A stretch of 64,000 bases of DNA from positions 67-64,066 of the forward strand of contig JAHFHX010000005.1 of NCBI GenBank assembly GCA_023246655.1. Direction: 5' to 3'. Positions 17,666 to 58,352 of the stretch are shown here, piece after piece. Every line of letters starts with the position of its first letter. The first letter of the stretch is position 1. This DNA comes from Candidatus Magasanikiibacteriota bacterium. GTDB lineage: Bacteria; Patescibacteriota; Patescibacteriia; Magasanikbacterales; GWA2-37-8. A program made the position numbers and the translations under genes. Under the pieces are notes generated by a model. That model was not told the DNA's origin. It saw only the letters and a list, made by a program, of their open reading frames with translations, and ran no database searches.

Positions 17666-18151
17666 ATGATAAGTACATTACTATCGGATTTTTCTAGAGT
17701 TTGGCTGTTTCCAAAAGATAAAAATTATCTGGGCGGGCTTAATGAGCTATATGATAAATTAAAAAAACAAGGAAAGTTCAATTTTTTTGATTATTTTGAG
17801 CTCAACGAAGAGCTTTTGACCAAAGTAAAAGATTGGAATCAAAAACTAGAGATATATATTTTTACAACTGGTCATATACAAAATACTCCGGGTGTCATAG
17901 AACGCGTTAAGCCGTTGGTGAAGGGAATTTATTCCGCGGAAGATTTACCCATTAATAAATTATCTCCCGAAGGCTTTGTCTATATGGCCCAACTCATTGG
18001 TAAAAAATCGGAAGAAATTTTGTATATCGACGATAAAGCAGCAAATCTAGAAAGAGCGCAACAGGCAGGAACAGCAATCTGCTTGTATACAGAAAATAAA
18101 TTGTTGTTTCAACATATCGATAATCTGTCTAATCAAAGTAAATCAGCGTAA
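17666..18151 (+). CDS. HAD-like hydrolase domain protein (degenerate N-terminal motif)
   Basis: C-terminal LYIDDKAANLERAQQAGT resembles HAD motif III/IV; no DxD nucleophile motif. Confidence 0.35.
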   Translation: MISTLLSDFSRVWLFPKDKNYLGGLNELYDKLKKQGKFNFFDYFELNEELLTKVKDWNQKLEIYIFTTGHIQNTPGVIERVKPLVKGIYSAEDLPINKLSPEGFVYMAQLIGKKSEEILYIDDKAANLERAQQAGTAICLYTENKLLFQHIDNLSNQSKSA

Positions 18152-18159
18152 TCTGTGTT

Positions 18160-18693
18160 ATGGTCCGCATTCTCGGTATCGACCCCGGCTTTGGCCGCAT
18201 TGGCTACGGGGTAATTGAACACAAGAAAAACAGCACTGACTGGCAAGCCGTTAGTTATGGTTGTATTTCCACCAACCCCAAGGAAACCTTCGTTGAACGC
18301 CTCAAAGACCTGCATGAAGAACTCATCGATCTCATCAAAGAATACCAGCCTACCCGCATGGCTGTGGAAGAATTATTTTTTTTCAAGAATTTAAAAACCG
18401 CCATTGAAGTTGCCCAAGCTCGTGGAGTGATTCTTCTCACGGCAGTTGAAAGCAGTCTCCCCGTCGACGAATTTACTCCGCTTCAAGTAAAACAAGCCAT
18501 GACCGGCTACGGCCGGGCCGAAAAAGGTCAAATGCAAAAAATGGTGGCGATGATTTTAGGAATCAAAGGCAAAATTAAATCCGACGACGCGGCGGATGCG
18601 CTGGCGGTGGCGCTGACGGCGGGTCAGTCACTCTGGGTCGCAAAAATAAAATCCGGATATACGGATGCATCCGGATCTACAGATAAAAAATAA
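18160..18693 (+). CDS. ruvC: crossover junction endodeoxyribonuclease RuvC
   Basis: ILGIDPGFGRIGYGVIE N-terminus, catalytic acidic residues; C-terminal 12 aa encoded by inverted repeat. Confidence 0.9.
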   Translation: MVRILGIDPGFGRIGYGVIEHKKNSTDWQAVSYGCISTNPKETFVERLKDLHEELIDLIKEYQPTRMAVEELFFFKNLKTAIEVAQARGVILLTAVESSLPVDEFTPLQVKQAMTGYGRAEKGQMQKMVAMILGIKGKIKSDDAADALAVALTAGQSLWVAKIKSGYTDASGSTDKK

Positions 18694-22233: not shown

Positions 22234-22262
22234 AAAAAACCCGCTGATGAGGCGGATTTTTT
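22234..22262. terminator. bidirectional terminator (cccgc-tgatgag-gcgg, A-run and T-run)
   Basis: Immediately precedes conserved boundary motif 22257-22292. Confidence 0.5.
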
Positions 22263-22292
22263 GTCTCGTTTGTGCACAAGGTGAGATGCCGG
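22257..22292. repeat. conserved island-boundary motif ttttttgtctcgtttgtgcacaaggtgagatgccgg
   Basis: Reappears at 34917-34990 with a 36-bp palindromic insertion; both copies sit 3' of GC-rich minus-strand cargo. Confidence 0.7.
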
Positions 22293-22355
22293 AGATTCAT
22301 GCCGGCTCATGGGGTGACGAACCAGGATTCGTCGTCCTCTCCTTTTTGTCGCTGG

Positions 22356-22796
22356 TTACTCGGTGTCCGGGTAGACCAGGCACGTGGGGTCGTCGAGCGG
22401 GATGAAGGGCAGATGCATGGAATGCACCAGCAATCCTTCCGGTCCGGTCTCGAAGGTGTGAAGTGTGCCGCGCGGCATCCACACGCGCATGCCGGGGACG
22501 AGCTCGTGCTCCATGAGTTCGCCGTTGCGTTCCGCCTTGAACTGGCCGCCGCCGGAGATGATCGAAACGATACGATCGCTCTTCGGGTGCAAGTGGAGCC
22601 GCTCGCCCTCGACGTATCCAGCCGGGAACTTGATGAAAAGTTCCCCAACCAGCCCTTCCCGGATGATCCAGGCCGTCATGTAGCTCTCGTAGTACACCCT
22701 TCCTCTGTTGAGCGACGGAACCGGCAACCGTTCCAAATACTCAATGAAGTTTCCGTTTTCCCACCTGCGGGCGATTTCTTCGCTGAGGTTGGTCAT
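22356..22796 (-). CDS. cupin domain protein (GC-rich, Shine-Dalgarno-bearing)
   Basis: Cupin motifs HLHP...E...G and PRGTLHTFE; aggagg 5 nt upstream of ATG; GC visibly above native background. Confidence 0.7.
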   Translation of the reverse strand: MTNLSEEIARRWENGNFIEYLERLPVPSLNRGRVYYESYMTAWIIREGLVGELFIKFPAGYVEGERLHLHPKSDRIVSIISGGGQFKAERNGELMEHELVPGMRVWMPRGTLHTFETGPEGLLVHSMHLPFIPLDDPTCLVYPDTE

Positions 22797-22804
22797 GCTA
22801 CCTC

Positions 22805-23176
22805 CTACCGGTAAGGGTGATCTTTCAATTCAGGCGGTGACGTCGGCGGCCTGAATTTTTTTTCCAACCACCTTCGCCAGGGCCCGTGATAATGATCCCC
22901 TGAAGCACTAGGGAATCTCACGTTAAGTAGAGCCATATAAAGGAACAGAAAACCAATAACTAAAATTAAGAAAGACAGGCTCTTAATCCCCTCGGGGAAC
23001 CAAGGCTGGTGGGTCGCCCATGCCAAAAGATTTAGCGGGACTCCCACTTCCAAAATAAAAATAAAGATGTCGGCGAAGCCCTTGTGGTTGGCCCAGACAT
23101 AGGCCGCCACCGGTATAAGCTTGATACAACACACGAAGATGATGCTCCGCGCGATACTACGAATGCGTTCGCTCAT
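22805..23176 (-). CDS. small multi-TM membrane protein
   Basis: Start at internal Met MSERIRS; 3-4 predicted TM helices; part of island 1. Confidence 0.4.
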   Translation of the reverse strand: MSERIRSIARSIIFVCCIKLIPVAAYVWANHKGFADIFIFILEVGVPLNLLAWATHQPWFPEGIKSLSFLILVIGFLFLYMALLNVRFPSASGDHYHGPWRRWLEKKFRPPTSPPELKDHPYR

Positions 23177-23313
23177 GGCTGTCTCCTTGTTTTGGTTCGT
23201 TTGAACACTACACCATACTACATTTTTTGTCAATACTTTTCTACATAATCTTATCCACAGATAGAGTAAAAATTATAGCATTATTCACATTATTTTAGCT
23301 AAATTATAAGTAC

Positions 23314-23386: not shown

Positions 23387-24118
23387 ATGATCACCGCCCC
23401 ACAATTAGAAGAATTTGGGCTTAGCTTAAAGGAAGCTCAGGTCTATTTAGCCTCCCTGCAATTAGGCCCGGCGAGCGTGCAAGCTCTCGCGGAGCAGGCG
23501 GCCATTCACCGCGTTTCTACCTACGATATTATCCAATCGTTAATCGAAAAGGGGTTTGTTCACCAAACCGCTCAAGGCAAAAAACGGCATTTAGAAGCAG
23601 TCGCGCCCGACAAGGTACTGCTCTCGCTCCGCGCCAAGGAAACGTCGTTTCTTAATTTGCTCCCGGAATTAAAGGCCATTGCCTGTAAAGGCGCCAGCAA
23701 GCCCAAGGTTATGTATTTTGAGGGCAGAGACACCGTGTGGAAAGCGTATCTCGATAGAATTAGGCACGACACCAGTGATAAGGAAAATTTGGTGTATGGC
23801 ACGTCCACGGAATTATTAACCACCTACCCCAAAGAATACGAACAATTCACCAAAGAACGATTGGCGCGGGGCATCAAAGCCAGAATCATCGTGGAAAAAT
23901 CAGCCTACGGCATGGTAGAAGCCAAACGCGCCAAAGACGAACTACGCGAAGTAAAATTTTTGCCCGAAGGTAAAAAATTTAAAACCCACACCGTTATCTA
24001 CGGCAATCGCGTTATGACCGTATCGTGGGAGAGCATGATTTTGGTAATTATTGAAGATCAAGCGAATGCAGATAATCAACGTTTAGTTTGGGAGATGTTG
24101 TGGAATAGTTTGAAATAG
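23387..24118 (+). CDS. TrmB family transcriptional regulator
   Basis: N-terminal wHTH (LKEAQVYLASLQLGPASVQALAEQAAIHRVSTYDIIQSLIEKGFV) plus C-terminal TrmB-like domain. Confidence 0.7.
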   Translation: MITAPQLEEFGLSLKEAQVYLASLQLGPASVQALAEQAAIHRVSTYDIIQSLIEKGFVHQTAQGKKRHLEAVAPDKVLLSLRAKETSFLNLLPELKAIACKGASKPKVMYFEGRDTVWKAYLDRIRHDTSDKENLVYGTSTELLTTYPKEYEQFTKERLARGIKARIIVEKSAYGMVEAKRAKDELREVKFLPEGKKFKTHTVIYGNRVMTVSWESMILVIIEDQANADNQRLVWEMLWNSLK

Positions 24119-24158: not shown

Positions 24159-24264
24159 AACACAGATTACACAGATTGACGACGAGGATTACGCAGATGT
24201 GATCCGTCAATTACCTCCGTCTTCACAATCTGTGTAGCTTACTTTAATCAGCGTAATCTGTGTT
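24159..24264. repeat. repeat family F (cacagattacgcagat / aatcagcgtaatctgtgttatg)
   Basis: Palindromic copies; 22-mer aatcagcgtaatctgtgttatg also immediately precedes ruvC ATG (18138-18159). Confidence 0.7.
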
Positions 24265-25371
24265 ATGAACAAAAAAATTCTCTCCGAACTCTCCCCCGGT
24301 CTGCGCAAACTCATTGTTACCGACACCACTTCCAAAACCAATCGCATCGCCGGCATCCACGCGCATACTTCCAAAGCCAAAAGCCCAGTTTCCACATATG
24401 CCATGGAAACATTACAACACCTTAACGGCGGTTCCACACTCAACGCCGCACTTTGGCTTAAGGAACATCTCGATAATGGCGGCAAGCTCGTGGTTACGCT
24501 CGCGGGTGCTTTGAGTTCGTTCCAAATTGGTGTTATGCTTGCGGAACTCATTCGCCAAGGCAAAGTTCATCTCATCTCGGCAACGGGCGCTAACCACGAA
24601 GAATCGTATTACCGCTACGTCGCGCACTCCCATTACGCCTACATTCCCCGCTACACCGAGCTCACTCCCGAGCAAGAAGCCGAACTGCGCGACGCGGGCC
24701 TCCGCCGCATCACTGATACTTTTCTCCCCGAAGATGAATCCGTCCGCATCATGGAGCCGCACCTCCTTAAAATGTGGAAGGAAGCCGAAAAAAAAGGCAA
24801 GCGCTATTTCCCCCACGAATATTTCCGTCGCCTCTTCTCCGAAGGTCTTATTAAGCCCGACAAAGGCGCCAACCCAGCCGACTGCTGGACGTACGAAGCG
24901 TACAAAAAAAATGTTCCCACTGTCATCCCGGGCTTTGAAGACTCCACCATGGGAAATATCTTCGCGAGCTACGTCTACAATGGCCCGCATAAAAAGAAAG
25001 AGGATACGAGCGTCAGTGGTAGTGTGATGAAAACCGGCCTAGAATATTTTGGCTTTCTCTACGATTGGTATCAAGCTGAATCAGCCAATGCCCCGATTGC
25101 ATTTCTCCAACTCGGTGGTGGCATTGCCGCTGATTTCCCCATCTGCGTGGTTCCATCTCTCAAACATGATCTTAAATTAAAAAAAGTTCGTGACTGGGCT
25201 GGGTTTATTGAAATCGGCTCCAGCCCCATGTCCTACGGTTCCTACTCTGGCGCCGGCGGCAAAGAAAAAATTACGTGGGATAAGTTATCCACGAAGAGTT
25301 ATTACCAGATTATTCAGAGTGATGTGACTGTAGCGTTTCCGTGGATTGCGGCGGTGTTACTTGGGCTATAG
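24265..25371 (+). CDS. deoxyhypusine synthase family protein (homospermidine synthase-like)
   Basis: Blocks VVTLAGALSS, ISATGANHEE, QLGGGIAADF, ITWDKL, FPWIAAVLLG align to the DHS NAD-binding core. Confidence 0.75.
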   Translation: MNKKILSELSPGLRKLIVTDTTSKTNRIAGIHAHTSKAKSPVSTYAMETLQHLNGGSTLNAALWLKEHLDNGGKLVVTLAGALSSFQIGVMLAELIRQGKVHLISATGANHEESYYRYVAHSHYAYIPRYTELTPEQEAELRDAGLRRITDTFLPEDESVRIMEPHLLKMWKEAEKKGKRYFPHEYFRRLFSEGLIKPDKGANPADCWTYEAYKKNVPTVIPGFEDSTMGNIFASYVYNGPHKKKEDTSVSGSVMKTGLEYFGFLYDWYQAESANAPIAFLQLGGGIAADFPICVVPSLKHDLKLKKVRDWAGFIEIGSSPMSYGSYSGAGGKEKITWDKLSTKSYYQIIQSDVTVAFPWIAAVLLGL

Positions 25372-29180: not shown

Positions 29181-29192
29181 ATATGTACGAAT

Positions 29193-29724
29193 ATACGAAA
29201 TAATACGAACTTACGAACTACGAACACACCATGCATGATGTGCTAATTTAGAAACAAAATACTTACGAACTACGAACAAATTAATATTCATTAATTACTC
29301 TTTTAATTACAACTCCACGGTAAGTAAAACAGGCGATAATAGCTAATTTTAAGTTGAGCGCGGACAAGTATTGTTTTGTTTGTTCAATGACAGAAGCTGA
29401 AATAAATTCGCCGCGCTTTAATTCTAAAACAATTTTATTTTCAATCAAAAAATCAAGAAAATATTTACCGACAATTTCATTTTCGTACCGGAGAGGTACA
29501 TAAACTTGTTCGCCAAAGATAAGGTGTCTGTATCCTAGCCCAATGCCAACGGCTTTCTGGTAATATTTCTCTTGATGTCCGCCGCCAAGGCGTTTAGAGA
29601 CATCGATTAAAATGCCGTTAATAATAAAACTCAACTCTGGAAATAGTAAATCTTTTTTATTTACTACATATTGTTTCCCTCCACCAGGCATATTCGTAGT
29701 TCGTAAGTTCGTATTATTTCGTAT
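29193..29724. mobile_element. IR-flanked cassette carrying a GxxExxY-family ORF (tacgaa-type IRs)
   Basis: 33-bp IR atacgaaataatacgaacttacgaactacgaa (29193-29225) and its reverse complement at 29692-29724. Confidence 0.7.
29281..29691 (-). CDS. GxxExxY family protein
   Basis: GHQEKYY (GxxExxY) motif; homolog of ORF 18694-19107. Confidence 0.7.
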   Translation of the reverse strand: MPGGGKQYVVNKKDLLFPELSFIINGILIDVSKRLGGGHQEKYYQKAVGIGLGYRHLIFGEQVYVPLRYENEIVGKYFLDFLIENKIVLELKRGEFISASVIEQTKQYLSALNLKLAIIACFTYRGVVIKRVINEY

Positions 29725-34745: not shown

Positions 34746-34840
34746 AATGTAAGCAGATTAAGCAGAGTAAGTTTGTAAGCAGATTAAGCAGAAATAACGT
34801 CGCGATTTTTAATCTGCCTATTCTGCTTACCTTGCTTACT
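34745..34840. repeat. repeat family G (taagcagattaagcaga palindromic)
   Basis: gtaagcagattaagcaga x2 and inverted partner aatctgcctattctgcttac. Confidence 0.6.
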
Positions 34841-34891
34841 AACTGGATTATTATATCTTTTTCCTCTATTTTTGGCAACCTCAAGAAAAAC

Positions 34892-34923
34892 AAAAAACCA
34901 CCGTTTCCCACGGTAGGTTTTTT
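34892..34923. terminator. bidirectional terminator (accgt-ttccc-acggt, A-run and T-run)
   Basis: Precedes the second copy of the conserved boundary motif. Confidence 0.5.
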
Positions 34924-34990
34924 GTCTCGTTTGTGCCCGTCTGCAACGCTAGCGCTAGCTTAGCGGGCAGGCACAAGGTGAGATGCCCGG
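34917..34990. repeat. conserved island-boundary motif, copy 2 with internal 36-bp palindrome
   Basis: ggttttttgtctcgtttgtgc[ccgtctgcaacgctagcgctagcttagcgggcaggc]acaaggtgagatgcccgg. Confidence 0.7.
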
Positions 34991-35067
34991 CGTTGTTGCC
35001 TGCCGGGCGAAGACGCCATTTTGAGAACGTGTGTGGCGCACGGTTGCGGTGGAGGGTCATTCAGCGA

Positions 35068-35784
35068 TCACCCGTCGCGCTTGCGGGAGACGAGCACCCG
35101 GTAGCTCATGGAGATGGGGATCTTAGACGGGAAATCGTAGAACGCCAAGATGCGGTTGTCGCCGCGGCCCATGAGACCCGGCACGCGCAGGTGGTAACGG
35201 CCCGAATGCCACGAGTGGTCCCTCCACGCGACGATGGGCCGACGGAGCTGTGCTTTGGGATTGGCGGCGGCGAAGGCGAGGAGCTCGGGGAAGCCCTCGA
35301 GCTGGTATCCTTTCTCCTCGATCTCGGCGATGCCCTCGAGATCGTTGATCGTACGATCGAACTCGTACAGCTCCAGGTCGACCTTGCGGATGCCCGTGCC
35401 CTCGATCGGGAGCATTCTGGGGGAGAGCTCGCCGCCGGTACCGCTGATATCCTGGTCCGCGGCCTTCAGCAGGCCTTTGAAGCCGAGATCGAGGTTGACC
35501 AGAGTAGGATAGATGTGCTTCTCGCTGCGCCCGATCCCGATGCCGATCAGTATGGTCTGCTGCAGAGCCGCCTGGAAGGCGCGCCCAGCCGATCCCGCCT
35601 CACCGGCGCTCTTGGCGATGGATTTGATGAGGTCGGAGTGGGGGTTGTCGCCGGGGAGCTTCGGCTCGTGGCTGGAGATGAACTCGGAGCCGTCCTCGGT
35701 GAAAGTCGTTCGGAACTCCTCCTCGGGTAGGTCCGAGAGCACCAGGCTGTAGTTGTCGTCCGTCTTCAGGATGTTCATCCTCAT
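35068..35784 (-). CDS. hypothetical protein, GC-rich foreign-like gene 2 of island 2
   Basis: About 239 aa from ATG 35784 (MRMNIL); GIGIGRS glycine-rich segment; no confident family assignment. Confidence 0.5.
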   Translation of the reverse strand: MRMNILKTDDNYSLVLSDLPEEEFRTTFTEDGSEFISSHEPKLPGDNPHSDLIKSIAKSAGEAGSAGRAFQAALQQTILIGIGIGRSEKHIYPTLVNLDLGFKGLLKAADQDISGTGGELSPRMLPIEGTGIRKVDLELYEFDRTINDLEGIAEIEEKGYQLEGFPELLAFAAANPKAQLRRPIVAWRDHSWHSGRYHLRVPGLMGRGDNRILAFYDFPSKIPISMSYRVLVSRKRDG

Positions 35785-35816
35785 GGTCGTTCCCTTTCTG
35801 GCCAGGTTCAACTGGC

Positions 35817-36155
35817 CTACCAACTGGAAGACTGGTTGGCGATGAGCAGGTAGAGGTAATTCTCAGCGAAAGAATCAGGACTGATCCTCCCTCCGAAGCC
35901 GAGGAAGAGGGGGTCGCTGGCCCCCGGCATCTCGCCAGGCTCCACACCGAGGGCCACGATCGTTCCCTCGTCAGCGATCTGGGGACGGTACTGCTGGAGT
36001 GCCTTGAGGTGGCGCCGACTCGCGAGCGTGAAGTGGTGCCTCTGCGCGATCTGCCGGATGATGTCGGCGTCGTTCCGCCGGGCAAGGATCAAGCAGGCAC
36101 GCACCACTTCATGGTCGACTATGAGCTCGATGCTTCTAGCACCGTAAGGGGTCAT
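35817..36155 (-). CDS. hypothetical protein, GC-rich foreign-like gene 1 of island 2
   Basis: About 113 aa from ATG 36155 (MTPYGARS) with strong Shine-Dalgarno gaggagg 5-6 nt upstream. Confidence 0.45.
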   Translation of the reverse strand: MTPYGARSIELIVDHEVVRACLILARRNDADIIRQIAQRHHFTLASRRHLKALQQYRPQIADEGTIVALGVEPGEMPGASDPLFLGFGGRISPDSFAENYLYLLIANQSSSW

Positions 36156-36421
36156 GACGTCCTCCTCTCTTTTCTTTGCCGGGACCCATTCCCAGCCTCC
36201 AGCCAATTCTTTTATAAGAACTCGCTGGAGGCCAGGACTATGTCCAGCAGAGAGCCACCAGGCTATTCTGCTGGGTTTTGTAAAGAACAGTGTTTCACTG
36301 CGGAAACTAGTGAGTATACGTTATTTTTACAATCTTGTCAATATATACCAATAGATAGTAAGTATAATTTTGGCTTATTTTAAATAAAAATATAGAAATA
36401 TACAAAATATGTCGGAATAAC

Positions 36422-36450
36422 TTGACATATTTTTGAGAATGTGCTATACT
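36422..36450 (+). promoter_or_regulatory. sigma70-type promoter TTGACA-17-TATACT for second TrmB-family gene
   Basis: Consensus hexamers with 17-nt spacer; palindrome tccctctcccggcgggagaggga (about 36464-36500) lies between promoter and ATG. Confidence 0.55.
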
Positions 36451-36513
36451 ATAAACACTTATTCCCTCACCCTCTGTCCCTCTCCCGGCGGGAGAGGGAC
36501 ACTTGTGGCCACT

Positions 36514-37284
36514 ATGCAAACCATTAATTTAGAAAATCTTAAAAAATTGGGGCTAAAGCCCAATGACGCCGCTGTTTATCTAGCTCTTTTAGAGTTGGGG
36601 AACGGCACGGTAACGGAAATTAGCCATAAAGCCGCCTTAAACAGAACCACTGGTTACGATATTTTGGAACGATTATGCCTGTATGGTATTGTTGGTCGAG
36701 TCACTACTGGAAAGAAGAAGATTTATGCCGCGGAATCGCCCACCCGTCTCCGGCAATTTTTGGAAAATAAAAAACAAGTGGCCGAACGGCGCCTCGAGGA
36801 TCTAAAAACTTTGCTGCCCGATTTGCAGTCGCTGTATAAAACTGAACTCAAACCCACGATCAAGTTTGCCGAGGGCAAAGAGCAGATGGAAAAAATATAT
36901 AATGATGCCTTAGAAACCAAAGGCCCCATCTATTCCATTTTGAATTTAAAAAATTATGCGGAATTTTTTGAAGAAGCCGGAACTAAACAGTCCATTGAGC
37001 GTGCCAAGCGTGGTATTAAAGAAAAAGTGTTATCTATAAAAAATGAAACTGCACTCGCCTGGCACGAAAAAACATATAAAGGCAAGAAAAAATTACAAGC
37101 GCATACGGAATATCGCTGGATCGAGCAGAAGAAAGAATATTCCACGGCTGGAGAAATTAATGTATTTGATGATAAGGTTATTGTGATGCTTTCCCGCCCC
37201 GATGAAAATGCGGCTTTTGAAATTCAAAGCCAAACGTTTGCAGACTTTTTGAAAATTGTGTTTGAACGGGCATGGAATGGTTGA
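36514..37284 (+). CDS. TrmB family transcriptional regulator
   Basis: Start at MQTINLENLKKLGLKPNDAAVYLALLELG; wHTH plus TrmB C-domain; paralog of 23387-24118. Confidence 0.7.
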   Translation: MQTINLENLKKLGLKPNDAAVYLALLELGNGTVTEISHKAALNRTTGYDILERLCLYGIVGRVTTGKKKIYAAESPTRLRQFLENKKQVAERRLEDLKTLLPDLQSLYKTELKPTIKFAEGKEQMEKIYNDALETKGPIYSILNLKNYAEFFEEAGTKQSIERAKRGIKEKVLSIKNETALAWHEKTYKGKKKLQAHTEYRWIEQKKEYSTAGEINVFDDKVIVMLSRPDENAAFEIQSQTFADFLKIVFERAWNG

Positions 37285-37811
37285 TAATTTAGATTTGACA
37301 AATTAGTGAGAAAGGTTACTTTTACAAAATATAATATAAGAATCAAAATAGAATTTTAATCTATCATACCTATGGCTGGAGAAGGCGGAGGAGAACAGAA
37401 CGCAATTGATTCCGGACTTCATTTTCCAAGCTTTGAATATTCAACGTGGGCAACGAGACGTGGAAGCTGACCGCCAAGAGCAATTTGCCGATGATCCTGA
37501 AGCACTAATGGAATTTGGTAGAGTTATCCTTGAACTTGAACACCAAGTGCGTCGTATTATTGACGATGCTGCGCAAGTTCAAACTGCAGTTCAACAACGT
37601 ACTGTCAGACTTTAGAGATTGTCAGTAACGTACGTAACCTTATAGCCAGTTTGAGAAAAGGAGAAGACAAATCTCACCACCTACTCTTCCGGTTAGGCGA
37701 GTTATCTGATGGGGCGAGGCTAGAGGAAGTTTCTGATTATCTTAGTGGACTAGATAAGTATTTAGACGCTTTGGCACGGCGGTTAGGTGCTAAGGATTTT
37801 GGTGAAAGAGG

Positions 37812-37840
37812 TTGACAAGTGGAATAAGATCAACTATCAT
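37812..37840 (+). promoter_or_regulatory. sigma70-type promoter TTGACA-17-TATCAT driving a non-coding leader
   Basis: Consensus -35, 17-nt spacer; no ORF downstream before terminator at 38049-38069. Confidence 0.45.
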
Positions 37841-37846
37841 GTAATA

Positions 37847-38069
37847 AAGCGTTATCACCCGTAATCAGCGGGGAGCTGGAGGCAGAACTCCGTCAGTCGG
37901 AAAGTAGATCCTCCCGGGTACGCCCGTTATAGCAGTAATTAAGTAAAAGCACAAGATGGTACCGTCTGCGGCTTGCCGCACCCCGAGCGCAGCCCTCGAG
38001 CAAAGTCGAGAGGCCGAAGTCGAGGGGTCGTCAAATCATGGACTCTTGGCACGTGGAAGCGTGCTTTTT
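37847..38069 (+). ncRNA. candidate structured 5' leader/sRNA upstream of ileS (weak T-box-like features)
   Basis: GC-rich, stem-rich about 220 nt bounded by promoter and terminator (gcacg-tggaa-cgtgc-ttttt); contains CCGUUA and GAUGGUACCGUC; not confidently classified. Confidence 0.3.
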
Positions 38070-38155
38070 AATTTTCAATTTACAATCAAGGCCCAATATA
38101 TCAATGATGCCTTCAAAATTCATTGGAAATTGAAAATTATAAATTGAAAATTTTT
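38066..38155. repeat. palindromic repeat family I (aattttcaatttacaat ... attgaaaattataaattgaaaatt)
   Basis: Between leader terminator and ileS ATG; same IR family flanks the 4HB cassette at 51975-52431. Confidence 0.65.
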
Positions 38156-38162
38156 ACAAACT

Positions 38163-41100
38163 ATGTACAACGCCAACACCGAAGAACAAAAAATTCTCGA
38201 ATTCTGGAAAGAAAACAAAGCTTTCGAAAAATCTGTCCAAAATCGTCCCGAAGATAAACCCTACGTTTTTTATGATGGTCCACCATTTGCCACCGGTCTC
38301 CCACACTATGGGCATATTTTAGCTTCCGTTATTAAAGATGTGGTGCCGCGTTATTGGACCATGAAAGGCTACCGCGTGCCGCGCAAGTGGATTTGGGATT
38401 GTCACGGGCTCCCGATTGAGAGTTTGATTGAAAAAGAATTGGGTATTTCATCTAAAAAACAGATTGAAAATGAATTTGGCGTAGATAAATTTAACGACGC
38501 CTGCAAATCTAAGGTGCAATTATATGTTGGCGAATGGAAAAAAATGGTAGAGCGTATCGGTCGCTGGGTAGAATATGATAATTCCGCCAAAACTATGGAC
38601 CCAACCTATATGGAATCGGTCTGGTGGGCCCTCAAAACCATTTGGGATAAAGGCCTCATCTACGAAGGTCGGAAAGTCCTTATGTACTGCCCGCACTGCG
38701 AAACGCCCGTCTCCAAGGCAGAGATTGCCATGGATAATAGCTATAAGGATATAACGGAAGAGTCCGTCACCGCGAAGTTTAAATTAAAAAATAAAAATGA
38801 AAAAATAAAAAATATTGAAGGCGATATTTTTATACTCGCGTGGACGACAACGCCGTGGACATTGCCGGGGAATGTGGCGCTGGCGGTTGGGAAGGATATC
38901 TTTTACTCAGTCGTCCAAGCGACTAATGGAGTATATATTGTTGCGTCTGACCGAGTGGAAAAAGTTTTTGCTGGAGAAACAGTTGAAGTCCTGAAAGAAG
39001 TGAGAGGCGTGGATTTGGCTGGCTTAGAATACGAGCCGCTTTTTGACATGCCGGCCATGCAAGAAACTGGCAAGAAGGCATATTATGTCTCAACGGCCAA
39101 TTTTGTCACGACCGCTGATGGTACCGGTGTCGTCCATACGGCCGTGATTTATGGTGAAGACGACTATAATCTTGGCCTCAAACTCGATCTGCCCATGGTA
39201 CCAATGTTAAATGAGAGAGGGGAGTTTAATGAGGTGGCACCAGAATTTCTCCGCGGGGCTTATTTCAAAAAAGCGGAGAAAGAAATTAAGAACGACCTCG
39301 AAAAACGTGGTTTATTATTTTCCCGCGAGCAATTCACGCACTCCTATCCGCATTGTTGGCGCTGCAACACCCAGCTTATTTACAACGCTATTTCCGCATG
39401 GTTCATTAATATTCAAAAAATTAAAACTCGTCTCATTGAACTCAACCAAAATATTAATTGGTACCCAGAGCACTTGAAAGAGGGTCGTTTTCTGAATATC
39501 CTTGAGACAGCACCAGATTGGAATATTTCCCGTAATCGCTACTGGGCGACGCCGTTGCCGTTTTGGAAATGTAGTCGAAAGGAACAAGGAACAAGGAACA
39601 AGGAACAAGGTGATTGCGACAACATTGTATGCATCGGTAGTGTCGCCGAGCTGAAAGAGAAAGCGACCAACTTTTCCGAAGTATTCCCGACCGACAATGT
39701 TGCCGAGCTGGATTTGCACAAACAGTTCATGGATAAAATCAAACTCAAGTGTGACCAATGTGGGGGAATAATGGAGCGCATTCCGGAAGTGATTGATTGT
39801 TGGGTAGAATCTGGTTCGGTGCCATTTGGGCCGTTGCATTACCCGTTTGAGAACAAACAGGAGTTTAAAGACAAATTCCCGGGCCAATATATTGCTGAGT
39901 ATATTAATCAAACTCGCGCCTGGTTTTATTACACGCATGTGATGGCGACGCTTTTGTTTGATTCTAATGCTTTTGAGAATTGCGTTACCACCGGTGAAAT
40001 CCAAAATGACAAAGGCGAAAAATTGTCCAAGTCAAAACGAAATTTTACTGACCCCTGGATTATTATTGAGCAGTATGGCGTTGATGCTCTCCGTTATTAT
40101 TTAATGACCAGCCCAGTGATGCTCGCGGATAATTTGTTATTCAACGACCGCGAAGTCAAAGATATTTATAACAAAGTCGTCAACATGCTCTCGAATGTGC
40201 TGGAGTTTTATCAGATGTACGCAGCACCAACTGTCATCCCGAGCGAGGCTCGCGCCGACGAGGGATCTCTGGCTCACTCGACGACGGACAGAGATTCCTC
40301 ACCCCTGCGACGGGGATTCGGAATGACAAAACATAGCAAACATATTCTCGATCGTTGGATTATGGCTAAACTCCATGAGTTAGTCAAAACCGTCACCGAG
40401 GAAATGGATAAATACAACACGGTAAAAGCCGGCCGGCCAATTAAGGATTTTATTGATGATCTTTCCACGTGGTATCTGCGCCGGAGCCGCGATCGCTTTA
40501 AGGGTAGTGACGAGCTCGATAAACAGCACGCTCTCCACACCCTCCGTGAAGTGCTTCTGGCACTCTCCAAACTCATGGCTCCGTTCACGCCGTTCATTGC
40601 CGAAAAAATCTATCAATCCCTACATTCCTACTCGCCTACCGCCCTACAACCCTCGGTTCACCTAGAAGATTGGCCTCAGTACCACGAAGAGCATCACGTG
40701 CAAGGCGTGCTTGATGAGATGAGTGGTGTCCGTAAAATGGTGGAACTCGGTTTGGCGCTCCGGGCTGAGAATAAAATTAAAGTCCGTCAGCCACTGTATC
40801 AATTAACAGTGAACAATGAACATTTATCACACGAACTCAAGAGTATCATTGCTGATGAGCTAAATGTTAAACAGGTTGATTTCGCTGAATTCGTTGAGGA
40901 GAATCCAGATTGGGTGAGCAAAGAGGACGGTAAGCCCAAAGTGTGGCTCAATATCAAACTTGATGAGCAATTAAAAAAAGAGGGGCTACTCCGCGAAGTG
41001 ATTCGCACTATTAACCAATTGCGCAAAGAGATGAAGTTGACGATTCAGGATCAGGTGGTAATTTTGTATTCAACTAATGATGCGGAGTTACAACAAGTAT

Positions 41101-45833: not shown

Positions 45834-45841
45834 ACTTTCAA

Positions 45842-45944
45842 CTGTCATTCCGAGCGAGGCGTTGCAGCCGACGAGGGATCTCTGGCTCAATCAACATTGG
45901 GTGGTCAAGTGAGCCAGAGATCCCTCCTGCGGTCGGGATGACAA
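45842..45944. repeat. family A palindromic element (intergenic ruvA/pyrF)
   Basis: tgtcattccgagcgaggc...gagggatctctggctca / tgagccagagatccctc...gggatgacaa. Confidence 0.8.
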
Positions 45945-45952
45945 TTGGAGTG

Positions 45953-48175: not shown

Positions 48176-49057
48176 TTAATAATAAATTTTTGCCCCGCTT
48201 TTATCACGATGATATTTGCCAAACTCAGTAAGTTGGTTAGCAACTGCTTTTGATACCACCGGCCCTTCCATGCACATGCGGATACCAAGCGGGTCAACGC
48301 AACACTGCCCGCAGATGCCGATGCCGCATTTCATAAAGCGTTCAATGCTAATTTCGCATTCGAGATTACGCAGATTACAAAATTCTAAGACTTTAAATTC
48401 CATCAACTCAGGACCACATGTTACAAATAGTAGCTTTTTTGGCATTGTCTGATTACGCAGATACGAGTCGGCAAGTTCAGACAATAAATCCGTCACATAA
48501 CCTTTGTGTCCCGCGCTACCATCATCAGTTGCCAGGTGGAGAGTTACGTTCGGTAATTTTTTTACCCTTTCTTCAAATAATAAATTGTCTTTATCACGTG
48601 CGCCGACGCAAAAGTCGATTGTGACGTTGTTGTCGTGAGCCAGAGATCCCTCGTCGGCCGCGAGGCCTCGCTCGGGATGACAATTGGAGAGTTCTTCTGC
48701 CAAAAAACCCAGTGGTGCTGCGCCGTATCCGCCCGCGACCATTATGTAGTGGGTGTTTGGTTTTACAGAAAAAGCAGTGCCATAGGGGCCGGTAATGCCT
48801 ACTCGGTCACCAATCTTCATTTCAAACAAAGCTTTGGTAAGAGGGCCGCGGTTGAAAATAGTTAAGCCAAATTGTGCGCCACTATCATAACCAATTGAAA
48901 ACGGTTTTTGGTCGAGTCCGGGTACCCAGAGCATGACGAATTGGCCGGGTTTGCTTTTGAGAGAAAAATTAAAATAAAAAGTTTTGACCTGTTCAGTTTC
49001 GTTGACGATTTTTGTGATCGGTAGAAAAATTGGTTGGTCCATATTTGCAAGTGTCAT
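48176..49057 (-). CDS. pyrK: dihydroorotate dehydrogenase electron transfer subunit
   Basis: FAD/NAD-binding fold plus C-terminal 2Fe-2S Cys cluster CGIGICGQCC; start moved to internal Met because the upstream extension lies in a repeat. Confidence 0.8.
   Translation of the reverse strand: MTLANMDQPIFLPITKIVNETEQVKTFYFNFSLKSKPGQFVMLWVPGLDQKPFSIGYDSGAQFGLTIFNRGPLTKALFEMKIGDRVGITGPYGTAFSVKPNTHYIMVAGGYGAAPLGFLAEELSNCHPERGLAADEGSLAHDNNVTIDFCVGARDKDNLLFEERVKKLPNVTLHLATDDGSAGHKGYVTDLLSELADSYLRNQTMPKKLLFVTCGPELMEFKVLEFCNLRNLECEISIERFMKCGIGICGQCCVDPLGIRMCMEGPVVSKAVANQLTEFGKYHRDKSGAKIYY
48635..48683. repeat. family A half-element inserted in pyrK
   Basis: gtgagccagagatccctcgtcggccgcgaggcctcgctcgggatgacaa in frame (DEGSLAHDNN). 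Confidence 0.65.
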
Positions 49058-52896: not shown

Positions 52897-52935
52897 AAGA
52901 TATTTAATTATTTTGAGTTACAAAACATCAATTTT

Positions 52936-53138
52936 TGTCATCCCGAGCGCACGAGGGATCTCTGGCTCACACATTTGTCATTTCGAGCGGAGTGACGCCT
53001 CGCGGCGGAACGAAGTCGAGAAATCTCGTCGTATCGTTGCGAGATTCATCCACTACGCTCCTTCGTCGTCGCTTCGGTCGGAATGACAAGTAAGCCAGAG
53101 ATCCCTCGTCGGCTGCGAAGCCTCGCTCGGGATGACAG
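52936..53138. repeat. tandem family A elements between pyrB stop and pyrI start
   Basis: Two adjacent copies of gtcatcccgagcg...gagggatctctggctca ... gggatgacag. Confidence 0.8.
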
Positions 53139-53144
53139 TGTATG

Positions 53145-54062: not shown

Positions 54063-54083
54063 AGTAGATGGTTATTAGTTAAT

Positions 54084-54196
54084 CCCCCCTCGAGGGGGGC
54101 TCACGGGGGGTGTAAGACTCTTGTGTGGCCGTTTCGTCGTCCAACCGTTAGCGACGCAAAGGTCTCACACCCCCACTACCCCCCTCGAGGGGGGAA
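54084..54196. repeat. family B palindromic element overlapping the carB 3' end
   Basis: cccccctcgaggggggc...ggtgtaag...tctcacaccccc...cccctcgagggggg; supplies the last about 15 codons and stop of carB. Confidence 0.75.
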
Positions 54197-57100
54197 TTTA
54201 CAAATTCCTGCCACGAGAGAGGCACTCCGTCCTTTTTTGCTCTATTCGTCAAACAATCCAGAAACAACATTGCCGTTTGCAGGTTGGTAATAATAGGCAC
54301 GTGATGGTTAATAGCCATGCGGCGAATTTGGTAACCATCAGTCGTCACTTTCTTGCCCTGGCCACTTGGAATATTTATTACCACATCCACCTCGCGCTCC
54401 GCAATTGCTGTCAACACATTTGGCTCACCGCCCTCGCGTGCTTTATATAAAAAAGCCGAGGCAATACCGTGGCGTGACAGAAAATCGTGCGTGCCTTCAG
54501 TAGCATAAATGTTCCACCCCTCTTCGTCAAGCTGTTTAATAGCCGGCAGAAGTTCTAATTTTTTATCGCCACCAATGGAGAGTAAAATATTTTTGCCCTT
54601 AACCGTTTGTTCAGTCGCAAGCCAGGACATAAAGAACGCTTCTTGGTAGTTGCGCCCCAGGCACGCCACCTCGCCAGTCGAGGCCATCTCCACACTGGCA
54701 ATCGGGTCCGACCCTTTGAGTCGGTTATAAGAGAATTGCGGGGTTTTTACCCCCACATAGTCCAAATCAAGGGTAAAATACTGGGCTGGCACGTGACGAC
54801 CCAGCATCACTTGCGTGGCAATCTCAATAAAATTATGGCCGGTCACTTTGGAAACAAACGGAAAAGAGCGTGAAGCACGTAAATTACATTCAATAACTTT
54901 AACCTCATTATTTTTGGCCAGCAGTTGAAAGTTAAAAGGCCCGGTAATGTTAAGCGCCGCCACAATCTGGCGCGCGATGTGTTTTGCTTGGCGAATTGTT
55001 TCGAGGTAGAGCCGCTGTGGTGGAAGTACAATGGTCGCGTCTCCCGAATGTACGCCCGCATTTTCAATATGTTCCGAAATTGCCTTAATCACAATTTCTC
55101 CATCCTGCGCCACGCCATCCACCTCCAATTCTTTTGCTCCAGTAATAAATTTTGACATTACCACCGGGTGCTCGGGCGACACAATCGCCGCTTCGCCCAA
55201 ATATTTCTCCAATTCTTCGTCACTCCACACCACATTCATGGCTGTGCCGGAAAGAATATATGAAGGGCGGATGATAAGAGGATACTGAACATCACTCGCA
55301 AATTTTTTAGCGGCCGAGAGGTTAGTCACTTCTTGCCAGGTTGGCTGGTCTATTTTAAGTTTATTCAAAAGTGCGGAAAATTTTTGACGATTTTCAGCGA
55401 TGTCGATTGATTGGGGGGAGGTGCCGAGGATGAGCATCGTCGGTTTACTGTCATCCCGACGACGAAGGAGGGATCTCTGGCTTACCGATTCAACTGTCAT
55501 CCCGAGCGAGGCCTCGCGGCCGACGAGGGATCTTTGTCCGTCGATTGGTGAGCCAGAGATTCCTTGTCGCTGCGGCGCTCCTCGGAATGACAATTGAGGG
55601 TATGCCTTCGCGAGTGGAAGTGCCAAATTATTCGGAATTTGCCCACCCACCGACACAATGATCCCCTTGGGATTTTCAAAATCCGCAATGTCGCGCACTC
55701 TTTCCAAAGTTAATTCTTCAAAATACAAACGATCTGATTCGTCATAATCAGTGGAGACCGTTTCCGGGTTAGAGTTGATAATAATGGGGGATTCATCTAG
55801 TTTGCGCAGTGTCCGGGCGGTGTTGACGGCGCACCAATCAAATTCTACGGATGATCCGATACAGTACGGGCCAGAGCCAAGGACGATAATGGATTTTTTT
55901 GTACTCGGTTTTATATCATGTTCGGTGCCATGATACGTTGTGTAAAGATAATTAGTTTCGGCAGAAAATTCTCCAGCCAAAGTATCAATTTGTTTTATCA
56001 CCGGCGTAATTTTATTTTTAATGCGCAGTTCTCGGATTTTGTCTTCGGTTGAGTTGATTAATTTGGCGATGGTTTTGTCGGAGAAGCCGAATTGTTTGGC
56101 GGTGCGGAACAACTCCCCCCTCGAGGGGGGTAGTGGGGGTGTGAGTCCTTTGCGTCGCGGATCATTCGCCAACCGTGAGCCACGCAGGGGTCTTACACCC
56201 CCCATGAGGCCCCCCTCGAGGGGGGATTTGCGAACGCTGTGTTCAACATCCACAATCGCCTTCACATGCTCCAAAAACCATTTATCAATCTTCGACATCT
56301 CATGAATTTTCTCCACACTCATCCCACCACGCATCGCCTTATAAATTGCAAACAAACGCCGATCGGTTGGGTGTTCAATTTCCGCCTCGGGATCAGGAAT
56401 ATCATGCGGATAGTCACTCAAGCCATTGGCGCCAATGTTTAACATGCGCACGGCTTTTTGGAGCGCCTCCGGAAATGATCGCCCAATTGCCATCACCTCA
56501 CCAACACTTTTCATTTCCGATCCAATGGTCCGTTCCGCGATTTTAAATTTCGTTAAATCCCACCGCGGAATTTTCACCACGAGATAGTCGAGCGCCGGTT
56601 CAAAACAGGCGGACGTTTTTTTCGTCACGGAATTTCGGAGTTCATGCAATTGTTTCCCCAGCGCTAGTTTCGCAGCGACGAACGCAAGGGGATACCCAGT
56701 GGCTTTAGATGCGAGCGCACTCGACCGGCTCAACCGCGCGTTCATCTCAATCACGCGGTAATCGCCGTTCTTAGGGTTCAGCGCATACTGAATATTACAT
56801 TCGCCGACAATTCCCATTGCTCGCGCTACCTTGATAGCTACCTCGCGCAGCATGTGATACTCCTCATTCGTCAGCGTCTGCGACGGCGCGACCACAATGC
56901 TCTCGCCCGTATGAATACCCATGGGGTCAAAATTTTCCATGTTACACACCGTAATGGCGGTGTCATTACTATCGCGCACAATTTCGTATTCAATTTCTTT
57001 CCACCCGCCCAAATATTCTTCAATCAAAATTTGGGGAGCACCATGCAGTGCTTCCCCGGCGCGTTCGCGGAGTTCAGCCTCATTCTCAATTTTTCCTGAT

Positions 57101-57627: not shown

Positions 57628-57636
57628 AGTCTTTAA

Positions 57637-57685
57637 CTGTCATCCCGAGCGAGGCTTCGCAGCCGACGAGGGATCTCTGTCTCAG
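57637..57685. repeat. family A half-element immediately upstream of carB start
   Basis: ctgtcatcccgagcgaggcttcgcagccgacgagggatctctgtctcag. Confidence 0.7.
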
Positions 57686-57804
57686 TTTTTACTTTATCTT
57701 AGCCAAATTTATTAAATTTCACCCTGTCGTCACTTGCTTTCTTCTTCTTCTGCTATTATGCCTTGTTCCTCTAGCGCCACGGTAGCGCGAGAAAGGAGGA
57801 CAAA

Positions 57805-58164: not shown

Positions 58165-58185
58165 TTTAAAAGGACACTCGCCATT

Positions 58186-58352
58186 TGTCATTCCGACCGC
58201 AGGAGGAATCTCTGGCTCACTCAACGGTGTCGACATCGGTCGTTGGTTGAGCCAGAGATCCCTCGTCGCCGCGAGGCTCGCTCGGGATGACAGATCGCCA
58301 TAACCATTTAGCCATGTCAACTAGATCCTTCGCTCCGACTCAGGATGACACC
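58186..58352. repeat. family A elements at carA 3' end
   Basis: tgtcattccgaccgc...gagccagagatccctcgtcgcc...gggatgacag plus half copy ctagatccttcgctccgactcaggatgaca. Confidence 0.7.

What the first reader, a model, noticed from the sequence alone, without database searches (positions are those of the whole stretch)
34890..36210. GC-rich, Shine-Dalgarno-bearing two-gene cargo of unknown function beside a native TrmB regulator (island 2)
Two same-strand genes (about 113 aa and about 239 aa) of clearly higher GC than the window background sit between rpiB and a divergent TrmB-family regulator. Both have strong Shine-Dalgarno sites (gaggagg, gaaaggg), whereas nearly all native genes here have none. 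Neither protein matches a family I can name; the larger one has a GIGIGRS glycine-rich segment. The cargo is bounded 3' by a terminator plus a conserved 36-nt motif that also bounds a second GC-rich island at 22.2 kb. Compact, foreign, regulator-adjacent and unassignable: this is the best candidate for an undescribed toxin-antitoxin, defence or stress module in the window.
Basis: partly seen in the sequence, partly recalled or inferred. Interest (0 to 1): 0.78.

Follow-up and report, generated by a model that had tools for sequence, protein, structure and literature searches.

The report
Orphan DGR-type variable-protein gene island
The GC-rich two-gene insert is real and foreign-looking, but its larger gene belongs to a known kind: the small lectin-fold proteins that diversity-generating retroelements hypermutate in CPR bacteria, present here without that machinery, so it is not a new toxin-antitoxin or defence module.

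Summary
Window 34.9-36.27 kb has 62-65% GC against a 45% background and carries two minus-strand genes, g1 (112 aa) and g2 (238 aa). Both have Shine-Dalgarno sites, which about 46 native genes lack.

The interpretation as a toxin-antitoxin or defence module is not supported. g2 has no hit in curated libraries. A profile of g2 and its homologues, however, finds 2,062 representative clusters. Its C-terminal domain models as a C-type-lectin fold.

Three of its closest homologues (L001, L015, L017) are demonstrable targets of diversity-generating retroelements (DGRs). Each has a variable-repeat/template-repeat (VR/TR) pair mismatched almost only at TR adenines, with a reverse transcriptase beside it. 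Those homologues are also GC-rich and SD-bearing inside low-GC CPR genomes.

The window has no TR, reverse transcriptase or Avd in 64 kb, so g2 is an orphan target. One sibling population carries a stop codon in it. g1 is an ORFan with only a marginal resemblance to the same domain.

Two related genomes (one named Candidatus Magasanikbacteria) lack the island at the rpiB/ileS site. One site is empty; the other holds a different GC-rich gene, so the site looks like an insertion hotspot.

Verdict: a new member of a known kind, of modest interest.

The parts
34898..34916 (-). Bidirectional intrinsic terminator hairpin. The extended A-tract/T-tract stem spans about 34886-34927. It ends the g1-g2 transcript and insulates the rpiB promoter (34878-34850).
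   Evidence: Terminator scan. RNA fold of 34885-35030, z = -4.9.
34918..34987 (.). Shared junction motif. 34918-34936 and 34971-34987 are identical to 22257-22275 and 22274-22290 at island 1. Here the two halves are split by a 34-nt insertion (34937-34970) that extends the TTGTGC/GCACAA palindrome into a long hairpin.
   Evidence: There are only two copies in the window; the 17-mer is expected 0.07 times by chance.
34985..35008 (-). GC-rich hairpin in the g2 3' UTR (GCCCGGC...GCCGGGC). It is analogous to a hairpin of different sequence at the same relative position in island 1.
   Evidence: Sequence. Folds.
35068..35784 (-). g2, 238 aa. Residues 1-88 are a poorly modelled N-terminal part. Residues about 89-238 are a C-type-lectin-fold domain homologous to DGR variable proteins of CPR bacteria. 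An SD site (GAAAGGGA) lies at 35798-35791.
35080..35229 (-). The part of g2 (residues about 186-235) that corresponds to the variable repeat (VR) of its DGR-targeted homologues. No matching template repeat exists in the window. Both g2 SNPs seen in another sample (35183, 35210) fall here.
34933..35730 (+). A 265-aa antisense ORF that public gene callers annotated instead of g2. It is an artefact of high GC.
   Evidence: GC1/2/3 of 0.81/0.46/0.64, the mirror image of g2. Gene calls in L007 and L008. Homology supports the minus-strand frame.
35817..36155 (-). g1, 112 aa. It is an ORFan with a strong SD site (GAGGAGG, 36167-36161) and a coding-like GC3. It lies 32 nt upstream of g2.
   Evidence: Weak similarity to the g2 family.
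36195..36232 (-). A 38-nt imperfect palindrome/hairpin in the predicted 5' UTR of g1-g2, at the 5' edge of the GC-rich block.
   Evidence: fold z = -6.7.
36313..36341 (-). Sigma-70-like promoter (TTGACA-17-TATACT) in AT-rich DNA, reading towards g1-g2.
36422..37284 (+). Divergent promoter (36422-36450) and TrmB-family regulator gene (36514-37284). Its composition is native-like, but it belongs to the block that is absent at this site in two relatives.

Best explanation
**What it is.** The island is a horizontally acquired two-gene operon, lying within a ~2.9-kb block (with the TrmB gene) that separates the rpiB promoter from the ileS leader, in a CPR bacterium related to Candidatus Magasanikbacteria.

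**g2.** g2 encodes a small soluble protein with no signal peptide or membrane segment evident from reading the sequence (no prediction tool was run). Its C-terminal 150 residues form a C-type-lectin-fold ligand-binding domain. It belongs to the family of proteins that CPR diversity-generating retroelements (DGRs) use as variable proteins.

**How the family works.** In complete systems the last ~130 nt of the gene is the variable repeat (VR). It is overwritten by cDNA made from a nearby template repeat (TR) by an error-prone reverse transcriptase that randomises adenines. This re-shapes the binding surface.

**State in this window.** The target gene is present without TR, reverse transcriptase or Avd. 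It is therefore most likely a frozen, possibly decaying, orphan variable protein.

**Expression.** It would be transcribed from a sigma-70-like promoter divergent from a TrmB-family regulator, translated through its own SD sites, and stopped at a bidirectional terminator.

**g1.** g1 is a co-transferred ORFan of unknown role, possibly a degenerate copy of the same domain.

**Shown:** the composition, the gene structure, the homology, the fold, the DGR status of the homologues, the absence of DGR parts in 64 kb, and the absence of the island in relatives.

**Inferred:** ligand binding, TrmB control, the frozen or decaying status, and the direction of transfer.
For: **Family.** g2 has five homologues at 41-48% identity. 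A profile of them finds 2,062 representative clusters at E <= 1e-3 and 532 at E <= 1e-10. A family HMM hits g2 at 7.5e-41.

**DGR status of homologues.**
- L001: VR 6427-6557 and TR 6966-7096; 14 of 15 mismatches at TR adenines; RVT_1 reverse transcriptase downstream.
- L015: 18 of 18 mismatches at TR adenines.
- L017: 14 of 16 mismatches at TR adenines; reverse transcriptase 59% identical to that of L001.
- L011: a bAvd gene lies next to the homologue.

**Shared traits.** Close homologues are GC-rich (0.575-0.656) in 0.41-0.49 GC contexts and carry SD sites.

**Orphan status.** tblastn finds no reverse transcriptase or Avd in the window. No TR is found even when every mismatch at a TR adenine is allowed.

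**Foreignness and site.** L016 has the rpiB and ileS-leader promoters back to back. L018 has a different GC-rich gene at the same site.

**Decay.** A sibling population carries W192stop and V201E in g2.

**Literature.** CPR DGR targets usually lack recognisable domains and are expected to be new C-Lec variants (PMC8144416). Atypical GC is taken as evidence of DGR horizontal transfer (PMC5758913).
Against: - Only 64 kb of one contig could be searched. The genome was not in the genome collection, so a DGR acting from elsewhere cannot be excluded.
- The high GC and the SD sites are shared by family members in several hosts. They may therefore be a family trait rather than proof of recent arrival.
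- g1 remains unexplained.
- Regulation by TrmB is inferred from adjacency only.
- The stop-codon allele comes from a single assembly consensus.
Confidence: 0.7

Rival explanations
1. g2 is an active remote target of a DGR located elsewhere in the genome, so its C-terminal binding surface is still being diversified in trans.
For: - DGRs acting on non-adjacent targets are known, and contig-based surveys miss them (PMC8144416, read).
- Two of the five SNPs between two populations over 7.65 kb fall in the 150-nt VR-equivalent segment.
- Both SNPs are A versus non-A on the sense strand, at second codon positions.
Against: - No TR, reverse transcriptase or Avd is found in 64 kb.
- One of the two changes creates a stop codon (TGG to TAG), which DGR templates normally avoid (established knowledge of AAY-type variable codons).
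- g2 has a 2-residue insertion in this segment relative to its homologues.
- Three other assemblies are identical or nearly so in this segment.
Confidence: 0.15
2. The pair is an undescribed toxin-antitoxin, defence or stress module.
For: It is a compact two-gene operon with 32-nt spacing. It is foreign in composition, sits next to a regulator, and has no curated family hit.
Against: - The only PADLOC or NCBIfam matches are fragments with E of 0.05-0.23.
- g2 has a lectin-type binding fold, not a known toxin fold.
- g2 homologues occur alone or inside DGR cassettes, never with a g1-like gene.
- g1 has no homologues, so there is no conserved gene pair.
Confidence: 0.05
3. The island is an assembly chimera or contamination, not part of this genome.
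For: There is a sharp compositional break on both sides.
Against: Three independent assemblies from other samples (L007, L008, L009) carry the same sequence; L007 and L008 span both junctions at 99.9-100% identity, L009 only the 5' one. The junctions carry functional-looking promoters and a terminator.
Confidence: 0.01

Closest known systems
Variable (target) proteins of CPR/Patescibacteria diversity-generating retroelements (DGR clade 2 of Roux et al. 2021, PMC8144416; 'CPR set' of Wu et al. 2018, PMC5758913)
   Same: - 41-48% identity to proteins shown here to carry a VR with a cognate TR and reverse transcriptase.
- Small size, and no recognisable Pfam domain.
- C-terminal lectin-type fold.
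- GC-rich and SD-bearing inside low-GC CPR genomes.
   Different: - No TR, reverse transcriptase or Avd within 64 kb.
- About 50 extra N-terminal residues.
- A 2-residue insertion in the VR-equivalent segment.
- Preceded by an ORFan gene.
- Placed under a promoter divergent from a TrmB regulator.
Structurally characterised C-type-lectin-fold DGR variable proteins: Mtd (Bordetella phage BPP-1, 1yu0) and TvpA (Treponema denticola, 2y3c)
   Different: There is no detectable sequence similarity. g2 is much smaller, is not a phage tail-fibre tip or a lipoprotein, and has no signal peptide evident from reading the sequence (not tested with a predictor).
P0157, a hypothetical protein of Candidatus Magasanikbacteria RIFCSPLOWO2_02_FULL (GCA_001783035.1, locus L011)
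   Same: 48% identical to g2. Its gene GC is 0.63 against flanks of 0.46. It carries an SD site, and no TR or reverse transcriptase lies within 5 kb. It is a second apparent orphan in the same candidate phylum.
   Different: It still has a bAvd (PF22296) gene beside it. It sits at a different genomic site, with no g1-like gene and no TrmB.
Type II toxin-antitoxin operons
   Same: Two small co-oriented genes with short spacing, in horizontally acquired context, near a regulator.
   Different: There is no homology to any toxin or antitoxin family, no conserved pairing, and the lectin fold is not a known toxin fold.

Membership tests
DGR variable (target) protein | Sequence homology to proteins that carry a demonstrable VR | tested here: met
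   g2 matches P0001 at E = 3e-33 and 48% identity. The family HMM hits g2 at 7.5e-41. P0001, P0156 and the L017 protein each have VR/TR pairs.
DGR variable (target) protein | C-type-lectin (or Ig) fold that hosts the variable segment at its C-terminal end | tested here: met
DGR variable (target) protein | A cognate template repeat that differs from the VR almost only at adenines | tested here: not met
   An A-tolerant scan of both strands of the 64-kb window with the 3' ends of g2 and g1 found only self-matches. blastn-short found no similar segment. The rest of the genome could not be searched.
DGR variable (target) protein | A DGR-type reverse transcriptase (and usually Avd) in the same locus | tested here: not met
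   tblastn with the L001 and L017 reverse transcriptases and the L011 bAvd gave no hit in the window better than E = 0.56.
DGR variable (target) protein | Observed diversification of the VR between individuals or populations | tested here: inconclusive
   Two of five SNPs between the window and L007 lie in the VR-equivalent segment. One of them is a stop codon. L008 is identical to the window; L009 (35453-36471) does not cover the VR-equivalent segment. Read-level data are not available.
Toxin-antitoxin / anti-phage defence system | Homology of at least one component to a known toxin, antitoxin or defence family | tested here: not met
   PADLOC gave only DdmD at E = 0.053 (9 bits) for g1 and nothing for g2. 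Pfam gave nothing. NCBIfam gave DptH at E = 0.23 (9 bits against a cut-off of 620).
Toxin-antitoxin / anti-phage defence system | A conserved gene pair that recurs in other genomes | tested here: not met
   g1 has no homologue other than itself. The g2 homologues examined in seven other contexts have no g1-like neighbour.
g1 as a second member of the g2 (CLec) family | Significant profile match to the family domain | tested here: inconclusive
   HMMER scores g1 at 5.1 bits. One of 2,000 shuffles reaches that score. However, g1 ranks only third of 752 six-frame ORFs, at E = 1.4. hhalign gives probability 1% and P = 0.054. The single-sequence AF2 model has pLDDT 46.
Integron gene cassette | An attC recombination site (long imperfect inverted repeat with R''/R' core sites) at the 3' end, and an integrase nearby | not tested
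   This was considered only because two islands share a 3' junction motif. The 3' hairpins have stems of 5-9 bp, which from memory is shorter than attC sites. No integrase search was run.

The most novel reading that the evidence does not exclude
In this Magasanikbacteria-like lineage, certain intergenic sites act as capture slots for GC-rich, SD-bearing foreign genes. The evidence for this reading:
- Both TrmB paralogues in the window sit divergently beside the two GC-rich islands.
- Both islands end in the same 36-nt motif plus a bidirectional terminator.
- The rpiB/ileS site is empty in one relative and holds a different GC-rich gene in another.

On this reading the islands are cassettes moved by an unknown site-directed mechanism, perhaps placed under TrmB control. 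The GC-rich target, sitting beside a low-GC reverse transcriptase in complete DGRs, would point to targets being exchanged independently of the retroelement.
Probability: 0.12. Interest if true: 0.6.

Novelty: new member of a known kind. Interest (0 to 1): 0.33.

Why it matters
- **Assignment.** The finding turns an 'unassignable foreign module' into a recognisable object: an orphan DGR variable protein from a large family that Pfam, NCBIfam and PHROGs do not cover (2,062 representative clusters).
- **Annotation error.** Public gene callers annotate the antisense ORF here, so the family is under-counted.
- **For DGR biology.** It is an example of a target surviving, and apparently decaying, without its retroelement. 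Close family members are 13-22 GC points richer than their hosts, and where the full reverse transcriptase is held (L001, L017) about 20 points richer than it. They also carry SD sites in genomes that otherwise lack them.
- **For CPR genome evolution.** It points to an insertion hotspot between rpiB and ileS.
- **Scale.** None of this is a new kind of system.

Tried and rejected
- **Curated libraries.** Pfam, NCBIfam, PHROGs and PADLOC gave nothing usable for either protein. Pfam on 49 family members also gave nothing consistent. PDB sequence searches gave nothing.
- **Non-coding RNA.** No Rfam hit at gathering score in the window, and none of meaning at E <= 1 in 34.7-38.2 kb. No tRNA.
- **g1 as a paralogue of g2.** The similarity is marginal and is treated as unproven. 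The g1 structure model was too poor to search with.
- **TR hunt outside the window.** A degenerate pattern (A kept; C/G/T allowed to be A) first failed the 14-plain-base rule. Once accepted, it found nothing in genome contigs, not even the VR itself, so this genome is not in that collection.
- **Other collection scans.**
  - The TrmB protein found no relatives in genome contigs.
  - The g2 family found nothing in viral contigs and only one locus in JGI metagenomes.
- **The junction motif.** It has no copy in other fetched loci except those of the same species. It was not found in viral contigs as a whole. The two 17-mer hits there lie in unrelated sequence and look like chance.
- **5' ends of the two islands.** They share no similarity. 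The two TrmB proteins are only 26% identical, so the islands are not a recent duplication.
- **Other dead ends.**
  - No phage or plasmid matches.
  - AFDB fold libraries were unavailable.
  - Paul et al. 2017 could not be read.
- **T-box idea for the ileS leader.** This came from memory. Rfam gave no support.
Full report

Yes. In 1-kb windows, 35001-36000 has GC 0.624, while the rest of the 64-kb window lies between 0.38 and 0.54. At 100-nt resolution the rise begins near 34900 and ends near 36270, with AT-rich DNA (0.21-0.23 GC) immediately beyond the upstream edge. It is the longest stretch above 0.57 GC in the window.

Two minus-strand ORFs fill the island. g1 is 36155..35817 (112 aa) and g2 is 35784..35068 (238 aa). 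Their codon-position GC is 0.63/0.43/0.78 and 0.61/0.42/0.87. That is the signature of real genes from a high-GC source. It also explains the several long overlapping ORFs on other frames.

The 265-aa plus-strand ORF 34933-35730 has the mirror-image pattern (0.81/0.46/0.64). It is what public gene callers annotated in two other assemblies. Homology shows that the minus-strand frame is the gene.

Both genes have SD sites: GAGGAGG before g1 and GAAAGGGA before g2. In a crude survey of 51 non-overlapping ORFs of at least 120 aa, no native gene had such a site. Only the genes of the two GC-rich islands did.

RpiB, Rpe and two TrmB-family regulators are confirmed by Pfam.

**2. The shared motif.**

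Positions 34918-34936 and 34971-34987 are identical to 22257-22275 and 22274-22290, which overlap by 2 nt to give 34 contiguous bases at island 1. Here the two halves are separated by a 34-nt insertion.

Folding shows three things:
- Part of the motif (GAGACAAAAAA) is simply the A-tract arm of a bidirectional terminator.
- The TTGTGCACAA palindrome is extended into a long hairpin by the insertion.
- Each island has its own GC-rich hairpin just upstream of the motif.

The terminator at 34916-34898, the g1-g2 promoter at 36341-36313, the TrmB promoter at 36422-36450 and the rpiB promoter at 34878-34850 were found by consensus scan.

**3. What g2 is.**

Curated libraries give nothing. A word-indexed search found five homologues of 167-198 aa at 41-48% identity, covering the C-terminal 60-77% of g2. 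g2 itself is missing from that database because the antisense ORF was called instead.

A profile of these six sequences found 2,062 representative clusters at E <= 1e-3 and 532 at E <= 1e-10. Some are multi-domain proteins with two to four copies of the domain. None of 49 members has a consistent Pfam match.

- SenA, EgtB, FGE and PvdO;
- intimin and invasin;
- many animal C-type lectins;
- the DGR variable proteins TvpA (2y3c) and Mtd (1yu0).

Foldseek's top hits are almost all C-type lectins as well, though weak.

**4. The family is a DGR target family.**

- In L001, the context of the best homologue P0001, the last 131 nt of the gene (6427-6557) are repeated at 6966-7096 with 15 mismatches. 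Fourteen of them are at adenines of the downstream copy. An RVT_1 reverse transcriptase follows at 7467-8576.
- L015 shows the same arrangement, with 18 of 18 mismatches at template adenines and the start of a reverse transcriptase at the contig end.
- L017 has 14 of 16 mismatches at template adenines and a reverse transcriptase 59% identical to that of L001.
- L011 (Candidatus Magasanikbacteria, GCA_001783035.1) has a bAvd gene beside the homologue but no TR or reverse transcriptase within 5 kb.
- Two more distant members (L012, and the phage-like L014) have no DGR parts within 5 kb.

This fits published surveys. CPR bacteria are strongly enriched in DGRs of a CPR-specific clade. Their targets usually have no recognisable domain, and uncharacterised VR-bearing domains are expected to be new C-Lec variants (PMC8144416). 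Most CPR VRs were left unclassified by Wu et al. (PMC5758913).

**5. What is missing here.**

- The window has no reverse transcriptase or Avd by tblastn with three queries.
- It has no second family member.
- It has no template repeat for the 3' end of g2 or g1, even when any mismatch opposite a template adenine is allowed.

g2 is therefore an orphan within at least 35 kb on one side and 28 kb on the other. I could not search the rest of the genome. The degenerate TR pattern found nothing in the genome collection, not even the VR itself, so the genome is not held there.

Other assemblies of the same species carry the island unchanged (L008 and L009 at 100%). L007 differs at five positions in 7,650 nt, and two of these fall in the VR-equivalent segment: TGG to TAG (W192stop) and GTG to GAG (V201E). 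Both are non-A versus A on the sense strand, which is a faint echo of DGR-type change. A stop codon fits decay better than templated diversification.

**6. g1.**

g1 has no homologue but itself in the word-indexed search and no curated hit. Its single-sequence model is poor.

Residues 32-71 align with the helix-strand segment 'GY..A...ELLAFG..P..Q...PIVALGS' of the g2 family. The score is 5.1 bits, reached by 1 of 2,000 shuffles. Against that, the same ORF ranks only third among 752 six-frame ORFs, and hhalign gives 1% probability.

I treat a degenerate lectin-fold origin as a lead, not a result. No homologue context contains a g1-like gene.

**7. Foreignness and the site.**

A related genome (GCA_964533715.1, L016; 72-77% nucleotide identity in shared genes) has ileS and rpiB-rpe-trxB in the same relative order. 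There the two promoters sit back to back within about 500 nt. It has no g1, g2, TrmB or the two small ORFs. Relative to it, window ~34886-37830 is an indel block.

A second relative is named Candidatus Magasanikbacteria (GCA_030650025.1, L018; 70-78% identity). At the same place, between the rpiB promoter and the ileS leader promoter, it has a different 223-aa gene of 0.63-0.71 GC and no TrmB. The site therefore looks like a hotspot for GC-rich foreign genes.

The island 1 site (between the arginine decarboxylase and deoxyhypusine synthase genes) holds an IS200/RAYT-like gene in L018 instead (the family name rests on my reading of the sequence).

The close homologues of g2 are also 13-22 GC points above their flanks (L001 0.656 vs 0.486; L015 0.637 vs 0.414; L011 0.627 vs 0.459; L017 0.575 vs 0.442). 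They carry SD-like sites, while the adjacent reverse transcriptases have host-like or lower GC (0.435 and 0.375). High GC plus SD is thus a trait of this subfamily wherever it is found. It supports foreign origin but does not date the arrival in this genome.

**8. Mechanism.**

Best-supported reading:
- g2 is a small soluble lectin-fold binding protein of the CPR DGR-target class.
- It was acquired horizontally together with g1.
- It is transcribed from a consensus promoter divergent from a TrmB-family regulator, through a 145-nt leader with a strong hairpin (36195-36232).
- It is translated through SD sites that are unusual for this host.
- Transcription ends at a bidirectional terminator that protects the rpiB promoter.

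Without a TR or reverse transcriptase, its binding surface is fixed. The stop-codon allele suggests it is dispensable. Ligand, cellular role and TrmB control are inferences.

Rivals, in order:
- an active remote target of a DGR elsewhere (0.15);
- a toxin-antitoxin or defence module (0.05);
- an assembly artefact (0.01, contradicted by three independent assemblies).

**9. Residual oddities.**

Both TrmB paralogues in the window are only 26% identical to each other, and no others exist in the window. Both sit divergently beside the two GC-rich islands, and both islands end in the same motif. The 5' ends of the islands are unrelated, and the motif was not found elsewhere. This could mark a capture site or mechanism, but the evidence is two cases in one genome.

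**10. Verdict.**

The functional guess is not. The larger gene is a new, orphan member of a known kind of system (DGR variable proteins). Interest is modest.

Noticed in passing
window 22290-23200 (island 1), with TrmB at 23387-24118: A second GC-rich, SD-bearing minus-strand pair lies divergent from the other TrmB paralogue. It consists of a weak Cupin_2 protein (22356-22796, SD TAGGAGGT) and a 123-aa hydrophobic protein (22805-23176, SD AAGGAGA). It ends in the same junction motif plus a bidirectional terminator. In relative L018 this site holds an IS200/RAYT-like gene instead.
   Followed up: partly
window 40228-40290, 45837-45950, 48632-48690, 52934-52975, 53082-53139, 55463-55580, 57630-57690, 58181-58294; L016 8702-8743: A family of about 50-60-nt GC-rich inverted-repeat elements (TGTCATCCCGAGCGAGGC...CGACGAGGGATCTCTGGCTCA) is scattered over the window. 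One copy lies in frame inside ileS, where it is translated as ...VIPSEARADEGSLAH.... The related genome carries a copy at a different position in its ileS. This is reminiscent, from memory, of Rickettsia palindromic elements.
   Followed up: no
window 34933-35730 (+) and 22299-22814 (+); L007, L008: Public gene calls annotate the antisense ORF of g2 (250/265 aa) instead of g2. The same kind of long antisense ORF (22299-22814 +) exists opposite the cupin gene of island 1. Family counts based on called proteins will miss such GC-rich genes.
   Followed up: yes
window 37835-38160; L016 9494-9960; L018 21225-21392: A conserved structured leader with its own TTGACA-17-TATCAT promoter and a terminator-like hairpin precedes ileS in all three related genomes. 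It looked T-box-like to me (…GATGGTACC…), but Rfam gave no hit even at E <= 1.
   Followed up: partly
L001 6001-8576, L015 5001-6531, L017 4866-7377: In three complete or near-complete CPR DGRs, the target gene is 13-22 GC points above the host flanks. In L001 and L017 it is about 20 points above the adjacent reverse transcriptase. The excess spans the whole gene, not just the VR, so whole-cassette transfer does not explain it.
   Followed up: partly
L018 20428-21099: A 223-aa GC-rich (0.63-0.71) gene, with an N-terminal hydrophobic helix and an Ala/Glu-rich coiled coil, occupies the rpiB/ileS site in Candidatus Magasanikbacteria GCA_030650025.1. Its leader shares AGGAGGACGTCA with the g1 SD region.
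   Followed up: no
window-wide, the 20 nt upstream of start codons (e.g. 34746-34800, 29183-29224, 61655-61696, 18140-18160, 24245-24265): Native genes lack SD sites. Many instead have leaders built of short repeated words (TACGAA, AATCTG/CTTAATCTGCTTA, TTAGAC/TAGACA) directly before the ATG, and some are shared between unrelated genes.
   Followed up: no
window 54083-54230, 56111-56230, 58997-59117: Repeated CCCCCCTCGAGGGGGG palindromes with conserved flanks lie inside or between the large ORFs of the 54-60 kb region, which is itself richer in GC (0.50-0.54).
   Followed up: no
window 37406-37615 and 37651-37815 (+): Two small ORFs (69 and 54 aa, no Pfam hit) lie between TrmB and the ileS leader. 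They belong to the block that is absent in both relatives.
   Followed up: no
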